Shown one piece after another: positions 15,966-51,293 of a stretch of DNA of 64,000 nt. Position numbers and translations under genes: made by a program. The notes below the pieces were generated by a model that was not told the DNA's origin, did no database searches, and saw only the letters and a list, made by a program, of their open reading frames with translations. Every line of letters starts with the position of its first letter. Within the stretch, counting starts at the first letter, position 1. Source of the DNA: Minisyncoccota bacterium (GTDB lineage: Bacteria > Patescibacteriota > Minisyncoccia > Phycocordibacterales > SBAW01); NCBI GenBank assembly GCA_035546615.1, contig DASZWM010000006.1:1-64000 (forward strand), in the 5' to 3' direction.

Positions 15966-16727
15966 TTGAGCGATACTTTACGAATCCGTATGTCAGACAC
16001 GCCTACCGGCCACATCCATCCGATTTCAAGCCTTATCCGCGAGGCAAACCGCATATTTGCGGGCATGGGATTCTCCTTCGCCGAGGGCCCGCTCCTGGAG
16101 ACAGAATGGTACAACTTCGACGCGCTCAACGTGCCGAAGGACCATCCCGCGCGCGACATGCAGGACACCTTTTTTATAAAGGACGCGCCGGGCCACGTAT
16201 TGCGCACGCACACCTCGCCTGTCCAGGTGCGCTATATGGAAGCGCAGGCGAAGAAGGGCATCATGCCGCCGTATCGCATCATCGTGCCGGGCCGCGCGTT
16301 CCGCAACGAGGCGACCGACATGACGCACGAGGCCGAGTTCTTCCAGATAGAAGGGCTGGCGGTCGGGCCTGACATCACGCTTGGCAATCTCAAGGGCACG
16401 CTCGAGCAATTCTTCAAGGAATTATTCAAAGGCTCGGTCGAAGTGCGCTTCCGCCCGAGCTTCTTCCCGTTCGTCGAGCCGGGAGTCGAGGTTGATATGC
16501 GCCTGAGCGGCAATGACGTGCCCGAAAAGCTCAAGGATAAGTGGATAGAGATAATGGGCGCCGGCATGGTGCATCCGAATGTGCTAAAGAGCGCTGGGGT
16601 AGATCCGGTTCAGTACCGCGGTTTCGCCTTCGGCATGGGCCTCGACCGCCTCGCGATGCTCCGGTGGGGCATCGACGATATCCGCCTCATGCACTCCGCC
16701 GACCTGCGCTTCATCAATCAATTCTAG
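15966..16727 (+). CDS. pheS: Phenylalanyl-tRNA synthetase alpha subunit, catalytic core only (N-terminal coiled-coil arm absent)
   Basis: Class II core motifs (DHPARDMQDTFF; FRNEATDMTHEAEFFQIEG; GMGLDRLAML); 253 aa. Confidence 0.88.
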   Translation: MSDTLRIRMSDTPTGHIHPISSLIREANRIFAGMGFSFAEGPLLETEWYNFDALNVPKDHPARDMQDTFFIKDAPGHVLRTHTSPVQVRYMEAQAKKGIMPPYRIIVPGRAFRNEATDMTHEAEFFQIEGLAVGPDITLGNLKGTLEQFFKELFKGSVEVRFRPSFFPFVEPGVEVDMRLSGNDVPEKLKDKWIEIMGAGMVHPNVLKSAGVDPVQYRGFAFGMGLDRLAMLRWGIDDIRLMHSADLRFINQF

Positions 16728-16729
16728 AT

Positions 16730-17029
16730 ATGTGGAATATTGATTGGAGCTTAATAGGAATCGTAGGTCTTGCAGTAGCCACTATGTCTATTGCTATTAA
16801 GATTATCGGAGTACCTGACCAGATAAAAAGGAATTATCGTCGCAAATCAACGGAAGGAGTTTCTCTTTTATTCTATGTAATGTCTTTTGCCACTTATTTT
16901 CTCTGGGCATTATATGGATTTTTAAAAGATGATTGGGTTGTGTTTCTCGCTCAAGGTTCTTTAGGCTGTGTCACAAGTGGCATCATTCTTTGGCAATTTT
17001 TTGTGTATAGAAAAAACAAAAAGATATGA
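16730..17029 (+). CDS. SemiSWEET / PQ-loop family small transporter (AT-rich insert in pheST operon)
   Basis: 99 aa, 3 TM; architecture and motifs parallel to SemiSWEETs (…IGVPDQIKRNYRRKSTEGVSLLFYVM…LWALYGFLKDD…); stop overlaps pheT start (ATGA). Confidence 0.6.
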   Translation: MWNIDWSLIGIVGLAVATMSIAIKIIGVPDQIKRNYRRKSTEGVSLLFYVMSFATYFLWALYGFLKDDWVVFLAQGSLGCVTSGIILWQFFVYRKNKKI

Positions 17030-21737: not shown

Positions 21738-21854
21738 GTAAAACGCGATCGAGCGACGGCGAGGAAGTGCCGGAATACAGCAGTCTATTCTGGCCAAAAC
21801 TGGCAAACCTCGATATTTAAAAGTTGGGGAAGTCAGACTTCCACAAAAGCAAAA

Positions 21855-21885
21855 GGCGCCGGAGAAATCCGGCGCCTTCTTCATT
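21855..21885 (+). terminator. Rho-independent terminator after gyrB
   Basis: GGCGCCGGA-gaaa-TCCGGCGCC followed by TTCTTCATTT. Confidence 0.6.
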
Positions 21886-21913
21886 TGCGTTCAGTGTCGA
21901 ATGCCTGCTTACA

Positions 21914-22225
21914 TCAGGCCGCGACGGGCGTCCGGCGCTTCTCGATTTCGGGCTTCCAAGCCGCCGTGAGCTCGGCGTACTCGTCATCGACCGGAGTACC
22001 GTCGATTCCCTTGGCCTGAGCTTCGCTGAAAAAGCCGTTGGAAATCGGGGCTTTCTTCAGATCGGCGGGTGCCCCGTTGTAGCTGCCGACGAGCTGTCCT
22101 AGGACGCAAGACTGGTCGTACTGAATGTCGAGTTCGCCGGTGTCGATATGACCGGCCCACCCGGGCATCAATTGGTCGAGCAAGGTAGCGCCTGCGGCTG
22201 CGCGTGCTGCTGAAACATGAAACAT
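21914..22225 (-). CDS. Hypothetical protein
   Basis: Start moved to Met preceded by GGAGGG RBS. Confidence 0.35.
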   Translation of the reverse strand: MFHVSAARAAAGATLLDQLMPGWAGHIDTGELDIQYDQSCVLGQLVGSYNGAPADLKKAPISNGFFSEAQAKGIDGTPVDDEYAELTAAWKPEIEKRRTPVAA

Positions 22226-22386
22226 TGAAGAACCCTCCAATCCATTGTTGCGGGATTCGGAGATGGTCACGATACTAGTGTGACTCCCCAAGATAACAAT
22301 ACTCCTCACCCGATTTTTATCAAACTAGAGTATAAGCAAAAACTCCGGCGCTTGGCCGGAGTTTTTGCTACCTTATTATTTAAGAT

Positions 22387-23553
22387 TTAGTTCGTGCGGA
22401 CCGAGACAGTGTTATTGCCCTCGTTGAGCTCGCGGACCCAGTTGCGCGGGTCGGCGGTGATAGTGAGCGTGCCGCCGCGGGAATCATAGCGGTCATCGTT
22501 GCGATCGTAGTCGTCGCAGTACTCGTCATACCAGTCCTCCCACTCGTCGGTGTCCCAGTCGTCGCGGCTGTGGCTCGAGGTGTCCCAGGCATCCTGGTAC
22601 CAGTCCATCCAATCCTCCTCGTCCCAGCTGTTGTGGCTCTCGTCGCACTCGTCGTAGCGCTCGTCATCGGAGCGGCTGTCGCGCGAGCGGTAGCCCTCGT
22701 CGAAGGTCAGGGTGTAGACGATGCGGTCGCCCGGGTAGAGCGCCTGCTGCGCGGGGGAGCTGTAGGCGTAGCCGCCGTCAACCGGAATGTCCGCGGAAAG
22801 GTTCCAGCCGGCCGGCACGGTATTGGAGCCGACGTTCGCTATCTCGAACTGCGCCGCGGTGCTGCCGTAGCGCGAGGAAAGGGAATTGACCGAAAGGATG
22901 CGGACAGAAAGGTCCGGGTAGCCGTACAGCGCGGTCGCGCGCGGCGCGGCATAGTAGGTGGCGCCGGCGTAGCTGGCACCGGTCGAGGCGGGAGCCGTGA
23001 CAGGAGCCGCCGCGGCAACCGCGGGATTAACGGTCACGTCGGCCGATGCGCTTGCGGTGATGGCTCCGTCGCTGAGGCGCGTCGCAAGCACGGTTATGGT
23101 CGTATTAGCCGCCTGCTTAGCCGTGTTCTTCGCGGTAAGCGTCATGTTGGAGGTCGCGCCCGTGTAATTGAAGGACGAGCCGCATGCGACGGTCTGCGAT
23201 TTGCCCGCCGGGGTAGGGGCCTGAATGGAGAGGCCGCTTGCGCACGAGAAGGAGAGCGCGTAGCTATACTCGCCGTCCTTGTTCGAGTGGTTCCAGGAAA
23301 CGCTGAACGACTGTCCGGAGGCGACAGCGGAGCTCGGCACGGTAAGAGTCATCTCTTCGGTGCCGTTATCGTTCGTGTCGTGCGCGGTGCCGGTCATGAG
23401 CGAGGTAAGGCTTGAGCCCACGCCGCCGACGATGGAGGAAAGGTTAAACGCGAGCAGGATAATGCCCCAAGCGCCCAAAAGCAGCACAAGAATAACCCCG
23501 AGGAGGGCTACGACGCGCAGAAAGGTGTCCCGGAAAGTCTTTTTTTCGTGCAT
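22387..23553 (-). CDS. Cell-surface protein with CARDB-like domains and an Asp/Trp/Glu-rich low-complexity insert
   Basis: N-terminal signal anchor; S/T/A-rich linker; FEIANVGSNTV... and C-terminal ...RELNEGNNTVSV (CARDB E-x-NE-x-NN hallmark); ~70-aa D/W/E/Y-rich segment. Confidence 0.55.
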   Translation of the reverse strand: MHEKKTFRDTFLRVVALLGVILVLLLGAWGIILLAFNLSSIVGGVGSSLTSLMTGTAHDTNDNGTEEMTLTVPSSAVASGQSFSVSWNHSNKDGEYSYALSFSCASGLSIQAPTPAGKSQTVACGSSFNYTGATSNMTLTAKNTAKQAANTTITVLATRLSDGAITASASADVTVNPAVAAAAPVTAPASTGASYAGATYYAAPRATALYGYPDLSVRILSVNSLSSRYGSTAAQFEIANVGSNTVPAGWNLSADIPVDGGYAYSSPAQQALYPGDRIVYTLTFDEGYRSRDSRSDDERYDECDESHNSWDEEDWMDWYQDAWDTSSHSRDDWDTDEWEDWYDEYCDDYDRNDDRYDSRGGTLTITADPRNWVRELNEGNNTVSVRTN

Positions 23554-23609
23554 ACGGTGCTGAAAGCGGATAAATGTTTACGAGCGCATCGTATCATGGG
23601 CATTTTAGC

Positions 23610-23654
23610 GTGTCAAGCCCTGTACTTGACAAAATGTCAATTCTGGTATAAGAT
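23610..23654 (+). promoter_or_regulatory. Sigma70-like promoter TTGACA-17-TAAGAT with overlapping operator-like palindrome TTGACAAAATGTCAA (and upstream TGTCAA)
   Basis: Sequence read directly; lies in the divergent intergenic region between the CARDB protein gene and the sortase gene. Confidence 0.45.
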
Positions 23655-23720: not shown

Positions 23721-24344
23721 ATGACCCAGACTCACGGCAAAAAGCAGAGTGCAGCGGCGAAGACGGGGGCATTCCTGCTCACCTTCGTTATGCTCTTTGC
23801 TATTACGTACGGCTTCCTCGCGGTTGTCGACGTGTTGCCTGAGGACGGTCAAAAGGACGCGGCACCTTCCCATATCGCAGCGCAGGACGCAGGCGCTATA
23901 GAGGCTCCGGTTCGCGTGAAGGCTCTTGATGTCGGGCTTGATGCCAATGTCACGAACCCGAACACGACCGACCTCGACGCTTTGGACGCGGCGCTTGAAA
24001 ACGGCGCAGTGCGCTATCCGACCTCGGCGATGCTTGGCCAGGAGGGTACGGTGCTCCTTTTCGGGCACTCGTCCTACCTGCCGGTCGTGTACCACCAGTA
24101 CTACAAGACCTTCAATAAGGTGCAGAACCTTACGAAAGGCCAGGTAATAAGCGTCTATTCCGGCACCATGGAATACCGCTATGCGGTCACGAATGTCCGG
24201 GTTGCCGATGCGACCGAGGATGTGGTAGAACTTGCATCAAACGGCAAGCACCTTGTCTTGGTCACTTGCGACTCGTTCAAGTCCAAATCCAGCCGCTTCG
24301 TGGTTACAGCGGACTTTGTAGGGACGTATTCTCTCGCCAACTAA
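23721..24344 (+). CDS. Sortase-family transpeptidase
   Basis: N-terminal TM anchor; LLFGHSS (His) and LVLVTCDSF (TLxTC catalytic Cys) motifs; 207 aa. Confidence 0.65.
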   Translation: MTQTHGKKQSAAAKTGAFLLTFVMLFAITYGFLAVVDVLPEDGQKDAAPSHIAAQDAGAIEAPVRVKALDVGLDANVTNPNTTDLDALDAALENGAVRYPTSAMLGQEGTVLLFGHSSYLPVVYHQYYKTFNKVQNLTKGQVISVYSGTMEYRYAVTNVRVADATEDVVELASNGKHLVLVTCDSFKSKSSRFVVTADFVGTYSLAN

Positions 24345-24480
24345 CGTTGACGGGCGGATACCTCCTCGCAATGCGAGGAAAATTCACCAAGCGCTCGCCG
24401 AAAGGCTTGAAGCGAGGAGGGAATTGGAAAATGCACATTGATAGCCCTGAAAGGGGCAGAAACCAAGAGAAGGTTCAGAG

Positions 24481-24873
24481 ATGAACGACCACGGTAAAAA
24501 GGGGGTTCTGAAGCAAGTCATTGCTGAGGACCTCGGTGGCAAGACTCAGAAGTGGTGGCAAGGCAAGCTGCATGTTTACATGCGGCAAACCGAGCTTGCC
24601 CGGGAAGATCTTACAACGGTCAAAACCGAACTCGCAGCTGCTGTCGCCAAGGGCGAATCGGCCAAGAGCCAGGTTGCAGCCCTGGAAGAGCGCGTTACTC
24701 GCCTCGAAACCGAACTGGCTGAAGCCGGACGGAAAGAGAGCGAGTTCCGCGCGCAGATCGCTGAACTGGAAACGGAACAGTGGGAACCTGGTGATGTTGA
24801 AGATATCTTCAACATGATGACGGGTCCCTGGGAGACTGCCATCGCCAGCATGGAAAAGGAGCACGGGCTTTGA
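24481..24873 (+). CDS. Coiled-coil protein
   Basis: Heptad-rich ELA/ELE repeats; overlaps next ORF by 4 nt. Confidence 0.45.
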   Translation: MNDHGKKGVLKQVIAEDLGGKTQKWWQGKLHVYMRQTELAREDLTTVKTELAAAVAKGESAKSQVAALEERVTRLETELAEAGRKESEFRAQIAELETEQWEPGDVEDIFNMMTGPWETAIASMEKEHGL

Positions 24874-25757
24874 AAGATTCGTATCACAAGGCATTCGCGA
24901 CCCTGATCCTGTTCGGCGGGGTTCTGATTATCGGTGCCTGCCTTTACTGGGCTGGGGGAGTGGGCCGCGGTGGCCAGCTGACTCAGGACCAGGTCAATGC
25001 GCAAATCGCAGCCAAGGTTCCGACCAAGGAAGCGATCGTTGCAGGCATCGTCGCTGATCCGAACTTCACTACCGCCGCAAAAGCGGCAGTGAAGCCGGAA
25101 CTCGACACAAAGGCCAACATCGTCGACGTCATGTTCAAGAATGACTTCGAGGGCCTGGTCAAGCCGATCAACGACCGCCTCGCGGCGAACGAAACCGCTG
25201 TAGCGTCGAAGGTCGAGCAATCGGCCTTCGACGAAGAGTTCAAGCCTCTGAACGACAAGATTGCCGCGCTTGAGCCGAGGGTGAAAACCCTCGAAGATGC
25301 GCAGCAGGAAGCTCCGGCGCCTACGGCCGAAGCCGCTCCGCGTTCCAATCCGGATACGGCGGACGCAGTAACTTCACCGGTCGCCGGCAACCCGCCGGCG
25401 ACCAGCGATGACAGCTACGCGTCGTCGCACTACATCTCGATGAATGGCTACCGGCCGTGGACGAACTCGACGGCTTCCGAGCCTACAGAGAAGCCCAGCC
25501 GCGACGCCGCCTGGATGGATCGTATCGTGGCCAAGTGCCACATCGACCCGCCCGATCTGGAGACCGGAAAGTCCGAGATGAACATGGAGATGATCCATAA
25601 GACTCCGGACGACGTTCTCCAGAAGCTCTACGACGGGTGCCTAACCGAGGAGCAATACCAAGCCTCGTTGGACATCCCGACCGAAACCACAGAGATTTCA
25701 GTCTCATCAATACCTGAACCTACACCCGAAGAGATGAGTATCCTCGAAGGCTTCTAG
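24870..25757 (+). CDS. Membrane-anchored coiled-coil protein
   Basis: N-terminal TM, central coiled coil, acidic C-terminus; translationally coupled to the upstream ORF. Confidence 0.45.
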   Translation: MKDSYHKAFATLILFGGVLIIGACLYWAGGVGRGGQLTQDQVNAQIAAKVPTKEAIVAGIVADPNFTTAAKAAVKPELDTKANIVDVMFKNDFEGLVKPINDRLAANETAVASKVEQSAFDEEFKPLNDKIAALEPRVKTLEDAQQEAPAPTAEAAPRSNPDTADAVTSPVAGNPPATSDDSYASSHYISMNGYRPWTNSTASEPTEKPSRDAAWMDRIVAKCHIDPPDLETGKSEMNMEMIHKTPDDVLQKLYDGCLTEEQYQASLDIPTETTEISVSSIPEPTPEEMSILEGF

Positions 25758-25796
25758 CCAAGGTTCTCGTCTCCTCGATAATTGGAGTGAAGGAAG

Positions 25797-26069
25797 ATGA
25801 ATCGGAAGATAATCGGACTATTCTTTCTCGCTGCGATGACCGCCTCGGCCACAGCCGGCCAGAGCGTTCCTCCGCCAACCGGGCAAGAGCTCGAGGTGTT
25901 CCGGAACCGCGCTCAGCTGGTTCTCGGACACCACCTCGACGACTACTACTTCATGGGGCATAACGCGGGGCCGCCGCCGCGTCCCGGCTGCGTTCTCGAC
26001 AAGCGGGTGAAGGATCCGCATGTTCCGAACCTCTACCATGCGGGCTGGCGTTGCCCGAAACAGCACTGA
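25797..26069 (+). CDS. Small secreted hypothetical protein
   Basis: Signal peptide; followed by a 31-nt perfect palindrome. Confidence 0.35.
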   Translation: MNRKIIGLFFLAAMTASATAGQSVPPPTGQELEVFRNRAQLVLGHHLDDYYFMGHNAGPPPRPGCVLDKRVKDPHVPNLYHAGWRCPKQH

Positions 26070-26091
26070 CGTTCTTCGTTACTCTTTGTGC

Positions 26092-26122
26092 GCAGAGCGA
26101 TCGATATGATCGATCGCTCTGC
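26092..26122. promoter_or_regulatory. 31-nt perfect palindrome GCAGAGCGATCGAT-atg-ATCGATCGCTCTGC
   Basis: Read directly; between small secreted ORF and the repeat-protein gene; not followed by a clean T-run. Confidence 0.4.
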
Positions 26123-26232
26123 CACAAAATTTTTTCGCTATTTTCTGATTACAAATCTCTGTACGAGGTTTGTAGCCAGACTCTCGCGAAGGGAGTCGAG
26201 ATTATTACTAGTTTGATTTAGAAGAAAGTATT

Positions 26233-27531
26233 ATGAACAGCAATATTATAAACATAGGTCGTAAGATAAGCGTTGCTCTTATAGCGCTTATAGTTCTCGT
26301 GTTGCCTTTCGCTTCGGTGCAGGCAGCTGACTACTCTGACTATGATTATGTCGGGACCTCGTATTATGGTTCTGACTCTTCTAGCGATTACGTCGGGACT
26401 TCCTATTATGATTCCGGTTCTTCAAATAGTGGGAGCGATTACGTAGGAACGTCTTACTATACTCCTGATACTTCCAATGACTATGATTACGTTGGAACTT
26501 CGTACTATGAAGATAACTCTTCTGACTATGATTATGTCGGAACCTCCTATTATGGCTCTGGCTGCACCACGAACTGTGGCGGCGGTGGAGGTGGCGGCGG
26601 GGGCGGCGGATGCCGTTCTAACTGCACCCCTCCTCCTCCGAAGCCGGCCCCGGTTTGCGACCTCTCGGTCAGCCCTTCGCGCGTAGATTACGGCGATTCC
26701 GTAACTATCTCCTGGACCACGTCCAACGCCATCAGCGCCTTCCTCGCCGGTTTCGGCACGGTGTCCACTAACGGCTCCCGCACCAGCGGCGCTATCTATG
26801 GCACCAAGACCTACACTCTTACCGCGACCGCAAGCGGCGGCCGCACGGTAACCTGCTCCAAGACCGTTACAGTCGAGCGCGAGCATGAGCACACGCCCGA
26901 TCTCGAGTGCAAGCTTAAGGCTTCCGACACGAGCATCGAGCGCGGAGACTCGGTCCGCATCACCTGGTCTAGCGACGGCGCTGACTACGGCTACATCACT
27001 CCGGATATCGGTGATGTCGATGAAAGCGGTTCCGACACGGTAGAACCTCGCTCTGATACGACTTACAAGGGTACCTTCTACAACGACGACGGCGACAAGG
27101 TTACCTGCTCGGTCAAGGTAAACGTTGACCGCGAGTACAATCCGCCGGTCTACGAGAATCCGACTCCGTACATTAACCTCTCCGCTGTTCCGTACACCGG
27201 CCTTGACCTCGGTCCTGTCGGTACGGTTCTCTACTGGGCGTTCCTCATCGCATGGTGCCTCGTTGCCGCATACCTTATCGCGGTCAAGCGCGTCCACATG
27301 AGCGTGTACCGCTGGTACAAGAAGGCGCTCTTCGGCGAGGAGGTGCACTTCGCGCCGGCGCAGGAAGTCTCCTTCGCAGGGTTCTCCCACGCTGATGTCG
27401 CAAAGCTCGCAGAGATGCTTCGCGGCGCAGTCGCTCCCTCGCACGCTTCGGCACCTGTTGCTGCAGCTCCCGCAGGCGATGCGATAGACCCGTTCATCCT
27501 CTCGCAGATCCATCGCACTCCGCGCTCCTAA
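26233..27531 (+). CDS. Surface repeat protein: 5x DYVGTSYY repeats, poly-Gly/Cys spacer, two Ig-like C...C domains, TM, cytoplasmic tail
   Basis: Signal peptide; repeats D-Y-(D-Y)-V-G-T-S-Y-Y separated by S/D-rich spacers; CGGGGGGGGGGGGC; PPPPKP; two ~70-aa Cys-bounded beta-rich modules; VLYWAFLIAWCLVAAYLIAV TM. 5' third is AT-rich. Confidence 0.5.
   Translation: MNSNIINIGRKISVALIALIVLVLPFASVQAADYSDYDYVGTSYYGSDSSSDYVGTSYYDSGSSNSGSDYVGTSYYTPDTSNDYDYVGTSYYEDNSSDYDYVGTSYYGSGCTTNCGGGGGGGGGGGCRSNCTPPPPKPAPVCDLSVSPSRVDYGDSVTISWTTSNAISAFLAGFGTVSTNGSRTSGAIYGTKTYTLTATASGGRTVTCSKTVTVEREHEHTPDLECKLKASDTSIERGDSVRITWSSDGADYGYITPDIGDVDESGSDTVEPRSDTTYKGTFYNDDGDKVTCSVKVNVDREYNPPVYENPTPYINLSAVPYTGLDLGPVGTVLYWAFLIAWCLVAAYLIAVKRVHMSVYRWYKKALFGEEVHFAPAQEVSFAGFSHADVAKLAEMLRGAVAPSHASAPVAAAPAGDAIDPFILSQIHRTPRS

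Positions 27532-44315: not shown

Positions 44316-51293
<6,978 letters not shown>

What the first reader, a model, noticed from the sequence alone, without database searches (positions are those of the whole stretch)
22482..22692. Extreme Asp/Trp/Glu/Tyr-rich low-complexity segment inserted in a CARDB-like surface protein
~70 aa of the form DSRSDDERYDECDESHNSWDEEDWMDWYQDAWDTSSHSRDDWDTDEWEDWYDEYCDDYDRNDDRYDSRGG sit just before the terminal CARDB signature (RELNEGNNT). Trp is the rarest residue, and an acidic W-rich repeat is highly unusual. It could be a Ca2+ or metal-binding or mineral-interacting module, or a glycan/aromatic-stacking adhesion segment.
Basis: seen in the sequence. Interest (0 to 1): 0.5.

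Follow-up and report, generated by a model that had tools for sequence, protein, structure and literature searches.

The report
Acidic tryptophan hairpin on surface protein
The Asp/Trp-rich stretch is real coding sequence: a conserved, fixed-length module closed by two cysteines and predicted to form two helices, sitting in a normally tyrosine-rich hypervariable loop of a membrane-anchored surface protein of ultrasmall Paceibacteria, where it probably forms an exposed binding knob whose partner is unknown.

Summary
Window 22387..23553 (minus strand) encodes a 388-aa protein: an N-terminal membrane anchor, an Ig-like domain, then a CARDB domain. Residues 288-361 split the CARDB domain (30% Asp, 11% Glu, 10% Trp, 10% Tyr, net charge -22).

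It is not a slippery low-complexity linker. The core (C303-C346) is exactly 44 residues from Cys to Cys in 18 of the 19 relatives with the canonical two-Cys module. It has 12 invariant positions (2 Cys, 6 Trp, 2 Tyr, Asp, Arg). It evolves under stronger constraint than its host domain (dN/dS 0.13 against 0.46). AlphaFold2 predicts a helix-loop-helix with moderate confidence. Only the two short D/R/Y/S arms vary in length.

The insertion site is a family-wide hotspot. In 182 relatives the insert is 6-107 aa, about 21% Tyr, and has an even number of cysteines in 180 of 182. The acidic-Trp form is a rare variant: 21 protein clusters, and 4 of 1.84 billion representatives.

The gene keeps the same position, next to gyrB in 35 of 35 genomes and divergent from a sortase operon in 30 of 35.

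The best reading is a disulfide-closed aromatic binding knob. No known calcium-binding motif was found. Function is inferred, not shown.

The parts
22387..23553 (-). Whole gene: 388-aa type II membrane-anchored surface protein (membrane anchor, Ig-like domain, CARDB domain carrying the insert). Stop codon at 22387..22389.
   Evidence: Translation. Identical to the deposited protein P0001, with 187 homologues. AlphaFold2 mean pLDDT 77.5.
23434..23532 (-). N-terminal signal-anchor transmembrane helix (about residues 8-40), with the family-invariant LGAWGI motif.
   Evidence: AlphaFold2 helix 7-45. L26 G27 A28 W29 G30 I32 are invariant in 72 sequences. 70% identity even between the two architectures.
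23020..23370 (-). Middle Ig-like beta-sandwich domain (about residues 62-178) with a conserved Cys pair (C104, C124). It is absent from the ~300-aa short-architecture orthologues.
   Evidence: AlphaFold2 strands 67-176 with pLDDT 80-96. C104 and C124 are nearly invariant. Short orthologues lack the domain.
22693..22941 (-). N-terminal part of the CARDB domain (about residues 205-287), ending in the LYPGDRIVYTLTF strand.
22648..22692 (-). N-terminal arm of the insert (residues 288-302, YRSRDSRSDDERYDE). Low-complexity D/R/S/Y, variable in length between relatives, predicted disordered up to about residue 297. The RYDE/CDES 12-bp periodicity lies here.
   Evidence: pLDDT below 50 for residues 288-299. 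Indels are confined to the arms. Tandem Repeats Finder: 12-bp period, 2.6 copies, at 22636..22665.
22516..22647 (-). Core acidic-Trp module, C303 to C346 (44 aa): C-x6-W-x4-W-x2-WY-x13-W-x4-W-x2-WY-x3-C.
   Evidence: 18 of 19 canonical modules are exactly 44 aa. C303 W310 W315 W318 Y319 D321 R330 W333 W338 W341 Y342 C346 are invariant. dN/dS 0.13. Only 4 representative clusters in 1.84 billion proteins carry it.
22585..22620 (-). Predicted amphipathic helix 1 (residues 312-323, EEDWMDWYQDAW). Aromatic positions follow i, i+3, i+4, i+7/8.
   Evidence: AlphaFold2 helix 312-322 and 312-323 with pLDDT 70-74. Conservation pattern.
22513..22551 (-). Predicted amphipathic helix 2 (residues 335-347, TDEWEDWYDEYCD). 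It is an internal duplicate of helix 1.
   Evidence: AlphaFold2 helix 335-351 and 335-347. Weak DNA self-match between 22529-22569 and 22598-22638, 73% over 41 nt, offset 69 nt.
22471..22515 (-). C-terminal arm of the insert (residues 347-361, DDYDRNDDRYDSRGG). Low-complexity, variable in length, predicted disordered.
   Evidence: pLDDT below 50 for residues 349-358. Length varies between close homologues.
22390..22470 (-). C-terminal part of the CARDB domain (residues 362-388): two strands plus the ELNEGNN signature.
   Evidence: Pfam CARDB profile 78-100. Strands 362-368 and 382-386.
23588..23616 (-). Sigma-70-like promoter of the gene (TTGACA, 17-nt spacer, TACGAT, with an extended -10 TG). 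It lies back to back with the sortase promoter at 23626..23654 (+).
   Evidence: Consensus scan: 4 sites found against 0.6 expected from shuffles. This is a consensus match only.
22335..22369 (.). Strong hairpin just after the stop codon. It is a likely intrinsic terminator, so the gene is monocistronic.
   Evidence: 15-bp stem. RNA fold -32.2 kcal/mol, z-score -7.5.
23721..24344 (+). Divergently transcribed sortase gene, the first gene of a conserved neighbouring operon (23721..27531).
   Evidence: Pfam Sortase 5.8e-19. Same arrangement in L001 and L003-L006 and in 30 of 35 species-representative genomes.

Best explanation
The segment is a small structured module, not a spacer.

Anatomy:
- Two short, variable, disordered D/R/Y/S arms (residues 288-302 and 347-361) hold a 44-residue core (C303-C346).
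- The core is an ancient internal duplication of one unit, W-x4-W-x2-W-Y.
- It most likely folds as an antiparallel helix-loop-helix hairpin. The Trp/Tyr faces of the two amphipathic helices pack against each other or against the beta-sandwich. C303 and C346 close the base with a disulfide, and conserved Asp/Glu stripes coat the outside (net charge about -22).
- It projects from a loop of the C-terminal CARDB domain of a type II membrane-anchored, extracytoplasmic protein.

Family context:
- The protein belongs to the syntenic core genome of Paceibacteria (Candidate Phyla Radiation bacteria).
- The insertion site is the family's hypervariable hotspot. Most relatives carry a Tyr/Asn/Gln/Gly-rich insert with 2, 4 or 6 cysteines there.
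- The acidic-Trp hairpin is a rare lineage-specific replacement that keeps the aromatic content and the cysteine pairing but swaps neutral polar residues for acidic ones.

Most likely function (inferred): the insert is the exposed ligand- or partner-binding surface of this envelope protein, an adhesion or recognition knob. The aromatic residues would make the contacts. The acidic coat would tune specificity towards a cationic partner or a surface bridged by divalent cations.

Shown: reading frame, composition, domain context, conservation, fixed length, purifying selection, cysteine parity, synteny, rarity.
Inferred: the hairpin fold, the disulfide, surface exposure and the binding role.
For: Domain context:
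- Removing the insert in silico restores a full-length CARDB match above Pfam's threshold.

Structured module:
- 18 of 19 canonical modules are exactly 44 aa from Cys to Cys, with 12 invariant positions.
- There are no indels across the core in 9 sequences whose module identity goes down to 37%.
- Between the long and short architectures, identity is 58% in the module, 51% in the CARDB core and 46% in the arms.
- Against the P0002 gene, dN/dS is 0.13 for the module, 0.46 for CARDB-N and 0.27 for the whole gene.

Fold:
- Two independent AlphaFold2 runs predict helices at 312-323 and 335-347/351. Core pLDDT is 54-72 in the first run and 70-74 in the second, and the arms fall below 50.
- Aromatic residues follow an i, i+3, i+4, i+7 spacing in both helices (read directly from the sequence).

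Disulfide:
- Cysteine counts in 182 family inserts are 0 (26), 2 (78), 4 (71), 6 (5) and odd in only 2.
- The variants P0094 and P0134 add a second Cys pair, CGDEY(D)C, in the inter-helix loop. That is what a C1-C4 plus C2-C3 stapled hairpin would predict.
- Candidate Phyla Radiation genomes are enriched in MdbA-like oxidoreductases and VKOR, which form extracytoplasmic disulfides (PMC6744442).

Duplication origin:
- Weak DNA self-match at a 69-nt offset.
- Single-unit forms exist in P0131 and P0133.

Hotspot:
- Inserts are 6-107 aa (median 65), pooled Tyr 21%, median aromatic fraction 24%.

Core-genome status:
- gyrB is convergent downstream in 35 of 35 genomes and sortase is divergent upstream in 30 of 35 (also 20-23, 38).

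Rarity:
- 4 representative clusters in 1.84 billion proteins, all in the same CARDB context.
- No Pfam, NCBIfam or PDB sequence match.
Against: - No experiment and no ligand. The binding role is inferred from architecture and composition only.
- AlphaFold2 confidence for the module is only moderate (pLDDT about 55-74), and model coordinates could not be inspected. The C303-C346 distance and the position of the hairpin relative to the membrane are therefore unverified.
- High identity in a D/E/W-biased segment is partly compositional. The chance expectation is about 15-20%, still far below the observed 58-76%.
- The neighbour-joining tree does not show the module holders as one clean clade, so the history of the module (one origin, transfer, or repeated loss) is unresolved.
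- Conserved synteny with housekeeping genes could point to a structural envelope role rather than partner recognition.
Confidence: 0.5

Rival explanations
1. Calcium, metal or mineral-binding module. The acidic helix-loop-helix would work like an EF-hand or an Asp-rich biomineralisation peptide, chelating divalent cations or binding carbonate or phosphate mineral surfaces.
For: - Net charge -22 in 73 residues.
- Conserved acidic positions: D321 invariant, with D311, D317, D324, D332, D334, E339, D343 and D344 nearly so.
- Helix-loop-helix prediction.
- A D-x-D-x-D string at 332-336.
- This reading is compatible with the best explanation if cations bridge the knob to a ligand.
Against: - Pfam finds nothing in the isolated insert at E<=1, including EF-hand and other calcium-binding families.
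- There is no PDB sequence relative.
- EF-hand loop position 5 (residue 336) varies freely (D7 S4 N3 Y2 A1 G1), and there is no Gly at position 6.
- Sister lineages carry uncharged Tyr/Asn/Gln inserts at the same site, so the site's general role does not need charge.
- The invariant residues are mostly Trp, Tyr and Cys, not carboxylates.
Confidence: 0.2
2. Envelope-assembly partner of the neighbouring sortase system. The insert would dock the Tyr-rich, sortase-processed protein of the divergent operon (or another envelope polymer), so the protein is a structural part of a surface layer rather than a recognition adhesin.
For: - The head-to-head arrangement with the sortase operon is conserved in 30 of 35 species genomes and in 5 of 5 inspected loci.
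- The promoters lie back to back.
- The operon's last gene carries Tyr-rich repeats and a conserved (V/I)PYTG motif plus transmembrane segment in all six loci.
- The membrane anchor of this protein is unusually conserved, including the invariant LGAWGI.
Against: - This protein has no C-terminal sorting signal.
- No correlation was seen between the insert type and the repeat type of the operon protein across the six loci.
- Synteny with gyrB, pheST and dnaE is equally conserved, so the adjacency may simply be frozen gene order in a reduced genome.
Confidence: 0.2
3. Functionally neutral low-complexity filler. On this view it is a slippage-generated acidic linker tolerated in a permissive loop, or a sequencing or assembly artefact.
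For: - The composition is extreme.
- The flanking arms do vary by short D/R/Y indels, and Tandem Repeats Finder detects a weak 12-bp periodicity in the N-terminal arm.
- The loop tolerates 6-107 aa across the family.
Against: - The core has a fixed length, 12 invariant positions and dN/dS 0.13 with dS 0.74.
- It is retained in two different architectures at the same chromosomal position.
- It has been recovered independently from many metagenomes.
- There is no tandem repeat across the core.
Confidence: 0.05

Closest known systems
CARDB domain proteins (Pfam PF07705; solved example PF1109 of Pyrococcus furiosus, PDB 3idu/2kl6)
   Different: The domain is interrupted by a ~74-aa insert, so the intact protein fails Pfam's threshold. 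The solved CARDB domain that matches best (3idu_A, 116 residues) aligns only over 96 beta-sandwich residues and has no counterpart of the insert. Here a single CARDB copy ends a short membrane-anchored protein.
EF-hand and other acidic helix-loop-helix calcium binders
   Same: A helix-loop-helix is predicted, with a very acidic loop and helices.
   Different: No profile match. The canonical loop positions are not conserved. The conserved residues are Trp, Tyr and Cys. The module is extracellular and closed by a Cys pair.
Hypervariable aromatic-rich binding loops on Ig-like scaffolds (antibody CDRs, loops of fimbrial and other adhesins)
   Same: A beta-sandwich scaffold stays constant while one loop varies greatly in length and sequence between lineages. 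The loop is enriched in Tyr/Trp, the residues most favoured in binding sites (general knowledge).
   Different: This is an analogy, not homology. The variation here is between species, not somatic or retroelement-driven: there is no template repeat in the window. The loop is also stabilised by internal disulfides.
Small disulfide-rich aromatic carbohydrate-binding modules (hevein-type and similar)
   Same: Short Cys-bounded loops rich in Tyr, Gly and Asn (CNxYGPC, CTQQYPNYNC in relatives) displayed extracellularly.
   Different: No sequence or profile similarity was detected. The acidic-Trp version is helical and highly charged, unlike hevein folds. The resemblance is recalled from general knowledge and was not tested structurally.
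Sortase substrates (LPXTG proteins)
   Same: It is encoded next to a sortase, is extracytoplasmic and is built of Ig-like domains.
   Different: It has an N-terminal membrane anchor and no C-terminal sorting signal. The likely substrate is a different gene in the divergent operon (26233..27531).

Membership tests
CARDB domain (PF07705) | Match to the Pfam profile above the gathering score | tested here: met
   The intact protein scores 17.5 bits, below the 22.7 cut-off, and only profile positions 78-100 match. With residues 289-359 removed in silico it scores 24.2 bits, above the cut-off, over profile 2-100 of 101. Several homologues carry a precomputed PF07705 hit.
CARDB domain (PF07705) | Beta-sandwich fold superposable on a solved CARDB domain | tested here: met
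CARDB domain (PF07705) | C-terminal E-x-N-E-x-N-N signature | tested here: met
   ELNEGNN at residues 375-381. N380 and N381 are nearly invariant in the family.
EF-hand or other known calcium-binding motifs | Profile match, or the canonical 12-residue D-x-[DNS]-x-[DNS]-G...E loop conserved across relatives | tested here: not met
   No Pfam family at E<=1 for the isolated insert. Residue 336 (loop position 5) is variable, position 6 is not Gly, and position 8 is not hydrophobic.
Sortase substrate (LPXTG-type cell-wall sorting signal) | [quoted passage not shown] | tested here: not met
   The protein ends ...NNTVSVRTN immediately after the last CARDB strand. Its only hydrophobic segment is N-terminal.
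Tandem-repeat or slippage-type low-complexity region | Head-to-tail DNA repeats and copy-number or length variation between close relatives | tested here: not met
   For the core: Tandem Repeats Finder finds nothing across 22516..22635, only a 12-bp period with 2.6 copies at the N-terminal arm/core boundary, 22636..22665, and the core is 44 aa in 18 of 19 canonical modules. The two arms do vary in length, so the feature is met for the arms only.
Variable region of a diversity-generating retroelement | A nearby template repeat near-identical to the variable region, with adenine-specific differences | tested here: not met
   blastn of 22440..22720 against the whole window finds no second copy. 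The module is conserved rather than hypervariable between close relatives. Only this 64-kb window was searched.

The most novel reading that the evidence does not exclude
The cysteine-paired, aromatic-rich insert of this core Paceibacteria surface protein may be the lineage's host- or substrate-recognition determinant: a CDR-like specificity loop on a CARDB scaffold that is swapped cassette-wise between lineages. On this reading the acidic Trp hairpin is a previously undescribed mini-fold, a disulfide-closed 'tryptophan zipper' helical hairpin with a polyanionic coat. It would recognise a cationic or metal-bridged cell-surface target. Insert type would then predict partner specificity in uncultured Candidate Phyla Radiation bacteria.
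Probability: 0.2. Interest if true: 0.65.

Novelty: new variant of a known kind. Interest (0 to 1): 0.4.

Why it matters
How ultrasmall Patescibacteria (Candidate Phyla Radiation bacteria) recognise and hold on to their partners is largely unknown. The abstract of PMC12206443 says as much, and work so far centres on type IV pili in Saccharibacteria.

This analysis picks out a single-copy, syntenic, membrane-anchored surface protein present across Paceibacteria and Adlerbacteria-type genomes. Its one hypervariable, disulfide-stabilised, aromatic-rich loop is an obvious candidate specificity element. The acidic-Trp form is an undescribed, very rare sequence module: it has no Pfam, NCBIfam or PDB relative and occurs in 4 of 1.84 billion representative clusters.

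If the binding role is confirmed, insert type could be used to sort uncultured lineages by likely partner. The 44-residue hairpin would also be a compact new scaffold. If it is not confirmed, this remains a modest addition: a lineage-specific decoration of a known domain.

Tried and rejected
1. A profile search with the nine-module alignment A2 against the 5.8-billion-protein collection returned nothing, not even the members themselves. I treat it as uninformative, probably because of composition filtering of a short biased profile. It was replaced by a phmmer scan of all representatives and a full-length search with P0095.
2. Foldseek with the full-length model gave only generic tandem Ig/FnIII matches (integrin alpha, RbmA, transglutaminase barrels). 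This says nothing about the insert.
3. The afdb50 fold library was unavailable.
4. Literature searches for CARDB, tryptophan-rich acidic modules, and sortase or surface proteins in Paceibacteria/Parcubacteria found nothing on this family. 'cardb' mostly matched 'cardboard'.
5. EF-hand reading of D332-x-D334-x-D336...D343: rejected, because those positions are not conserved and there is no profile hit.
6. Diversity-generating retroelement target: rejected, no template repeat in the window.
7. Sortase substrate: rejected, no sorting signal.
8. Overlapping ORFs on other frames (22570..23415 +, 22380..22667 -): set aside as by-products of the GC-rich sequence, because homologues support only the minus-strand 388-aa frame.
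9. Monophyly of module holders: a neighbour-joining tree on 140 core columns was inconclusive.
10. Model coordinates are not exposed by the tools. The Cys-Cys distance and the orientation of the hairpin could not be measured.

Full report
**1. Observation**

The minus strand of window 22387..23553 encodes a 388-aa protein. Twelve residues of beta-strand (TLTITADPRNWV) and then RELNEGNNT follow it.

Residues 288-360 are 30% Asp, 11% Glu, 9.6% Trp and 9.6% Tyr, with net charge -22. The rest of the protein has 1.3% Trp and 6.3% Asp+Glu. The binomial tails are 4e-5 and 2e-17. Forty-four of 70 residues are aromatic or acidic, more than in any of the 13 other large ORFs of the window that were compared.

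An identical protein is deposited as a hypothetical protein of a Candidatus Paceibacterota MAG. 187 homologues align end to end. The frame is therefore correct and the organism is a Candidate Phyla Radiation (Patescibacteria) bacterium. The module recurs in independent JGI, ENA, NCBI and Logan assemblies, so it is not an artefact.

**2. Host protein**

- AlphaFold2 with a 72-sequence alignment (mean pLDDT 77.5) gives four parts: an N-terminal transmembrane helix (7-45), a flexible linker, an Ig-like sandwich (67-176, pLDDT 80-96), a second linker, and a second sandwich (195-285 plus 362-386).
- Pfam sees only the last 23 residues as CARDB in the intact protein (17.5 bits, below threshold).
- With the insert deleted in silico, the match becomes full length and passes the threshold (profile 2-100 of 101, 24.2 against 22.7 bits).
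- The segment therefore interrupts a genuine CARDB domain before its last two strands.
- The basic N-terminus followed by one long hydrophobic helix implies an N-in, C-out signal anchor, which puts the domains outside the cell (inference from the positive-inside rule).
- The gene has its own sigma-70-like promoter and a strong terminator hairpin.

**3. The insert is a module, not a linker**

Three homologue searches brought the number of 90%-identity clusters carrying the motif to 21.

| Property | Result |
|---|---|
| Cys-to-Cys length | exactly 44 aa in 18 of 19 canonical modules (one has 43) |
| Invariant positions | C303, W310, W315, W318, Y319, D321, R330, W333, W338, W341, Y342, C346 |
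| Always aromatic | positions 323 and 345 |
| Indels in the core | none; all length variation is in the two D/R/Y/S arms |
| Identity, long vs short architecture | module 58%, CARDB core 51%, arms 46% |
| dN/dS against the P0002 gene (dS 0.74) | module 0.13, CARDB-N 0.46, whole gene 0.27 |

A second AlphaFold2 run used only module-bearing sequences. It reproduces two helices (312-323 and 335-347, pLDDT 70-74), with arms below pLDDT 50.

In both helices the aromatic residues fall at i, i+3, i+4, i+7(8), which gives one aromatic face. Conserved Asp/Glu residues (314, 317, 321; 339, 340, 343, 344) line the other faces.

The two helices are copies of one unit:
- There is a weak DNA self-match at a 69-nt offset.
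- One-unit forms exist in P0131 and P0133.

**4. Disulfide inference**

- Across 182 family members with both flanks present, the insert has 0, 2, 4 or 6 cysteines in 180 cases. It has an odd number in only 2, and both of those look truncated.
- In the acidic-Trp form, the two cysteines bracket the start of helix 1 and the end of helix 2. These ends are adjacent only in an antiparallel hairpin.
- Variants P0094 and P0134 add a CGDEY(D)C pair in the inter-helix loop. This fits C1-C4 plus C2-C3 pairing.
- Candidate Phyla Radiation genomes are enriched in MdbA-like oxidoreductase and VKOR (PMC6744442).
- The disulfide itself is inferred, not shown.

**5. Family context**

- The insertion point is a hotspot. 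Inserts are 6-107 aa (median 65). Pooled composition is Tyr 21%, Asn 15%, Gly 11%, Cys 4%. The median aromatic fraction is 24%.
- Recurrent Cys-bounded cassettes occur, such as CTQQYPNYNC, CY(S/R)Y(N/D)GYQN(I/V)PVxC and CNxYGPC.
- The acidic-Trp hairpin keeps the aromatic fraction and the Cys pairing but replaces Asn/Gln/Gly/Pro with Asp/Glu, and replaces part of the Tyr with Trp. Hybrids exist (P0127).
- It occurs in two architectures: with the middle Ig-like domain, and without it (about 300 aa, with an acidic Pro/Thr linker in its place). Both sit at the same chromosomal position.
- A neighbour-joining tree does not resolve whether the holders are monophyletic.
- The module is very rare. 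phmmer against 1.84 billion representative proteins finds four clusters, all in this CARDB context.
- There is no Pfam, NCBIfam or PDB sequence match.

**6. Genomic context**

- The order dnaE, class II aminoacyl-tRNA synthetase, two to four hypothetical genes, sortase, then (divergently) this gene, then convergent gyrB, pheT and pheS is kept in relatives at 36-69% identity.
- Among 35 species-representative genomes, gyrB is convergent downstream in 35 and sortase is divergent upstream in 30.
- This protein has no sorting signal.
- The last gene of the sortase operon (26233..27531) has Tyr-rich repeats and a conserved LSx(V/I)PYTGLD motif plus a transmembrane segment. It is the likelier sortase substrate.

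**7. Mechanism**

- Best supported: a disulfide-closed, amphipathic two-helix knob with an aromatic core or face and a polyanionic coat. It is held on flexible arms from the CARDB sandwich of a conserved envelope protein, and it serves as that protein's exposed binding surface.
- Calcium or metal binding is possible as a cofactor, but it has no motif support. Neutral inserts in sister lineages also argue that charge is not the site's general requirement.
- A structural role together with the sortase-operon products cannot be excluded.
- A neutral-filler reading is contradicted by the conservation data.

**8. Novelty and score**

The scaffold is a known domain. The family, its hypervariable Cys-paired aromatic loop and the acidic-Trp hairpin were not found in Pfam, NCBIfam, PDB sequences or the literature searched. 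I class it as a new variant of a known kind and rate its interest as moderate (0.4). It is a clean, testable candidate specificity element in an uncultured lineage whose partner recognition is poorly understood. No function has been demonstrated.

Noticed in passing
window 44316..51293 (+): A single 2325-aa ORF carries all RpoB domains (residues 60-1088) followed directly by all RpoC domains (1107-2203). It looks like a fused rpoB-rpoC gene for the RNA polymerase beta and beta' subunits.
   Followed up: partly
window 26233..27531 (+), and counterparts in L001, L003, L004, L005, L006: The last gene of the sortase operon has a signal peptide and five DYDYVGTSYY-type Tyr-rich repeats (other Tyr-rich or Gly/Cys-rich N-terminal segments in relatives). 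In the window it continues with a poly-Gly run flanked by Cys and two repeated segments that look like Ig-like domains. A strictly conserved LS(A/Q)(V/I)PYTGLD motif follows, then a transmembrane segment and a conserved cytoplasmic tail ending D-x-F-(I/V)-x-SQI(H/N)R. This may be an unusual sortase sorting signal. Pfam finds nothing in the protein.
   Followed up: partly
window 16541..17029 (+): A SemiSWEET-like sugar transporter (MtN3_slv/PQ-loop, E 8e-12) has GC3 of 0.33, against about 0.55-0.85 for neighbouring genes. It may have been acquired recently from another organism.
   Followed up: no
window 21738..22386, including ORF 21914..22309 (-): The gap between this gene and gyrB is about 650 bp and holds a 131-aa ORF with no Pfam hit. 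In homologous loci the same gap is only about 10-330 bp and has no called gene. It may be a lineage-specific small gene or non-coding DNA.
   Followed up: no
window 23588..23654: Two sigma-70-like promoters (TTGACA, 17-nt spacer, TACGAT on the minus strand; TTGACA, 17-nt spacer, TAAGAT on the plus strand) lie back to back, 10 bp apart. They sit between the surface-protein gene and the sortase operon, which suggests a shared control region.
   Followed up: no
P0095, P0106, P0118, P0122-P0129; L006 6001..6948; L007; L008: Orthologues at the same chromosomal position lack the whole middle Ig-like domain. In its place they have a Glu-rich and then Pro/Thr-rich linker. Many also end in a YPTYPTYPQYPW(V/I)Y tail.
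   Followed up: partly
window 24481..25757 (+): Two coiled-coil-type proteins lie between the sortase gene and the putative substrate: a 130-aa soluble protein and a 295-aa protein with an N-terminal transmembrane segment. Proteins of similar size and character (helical, charged, Ala/Glu/Gln-rich) occupy the same place in the L001 and L006 loci.
   Followed up: no
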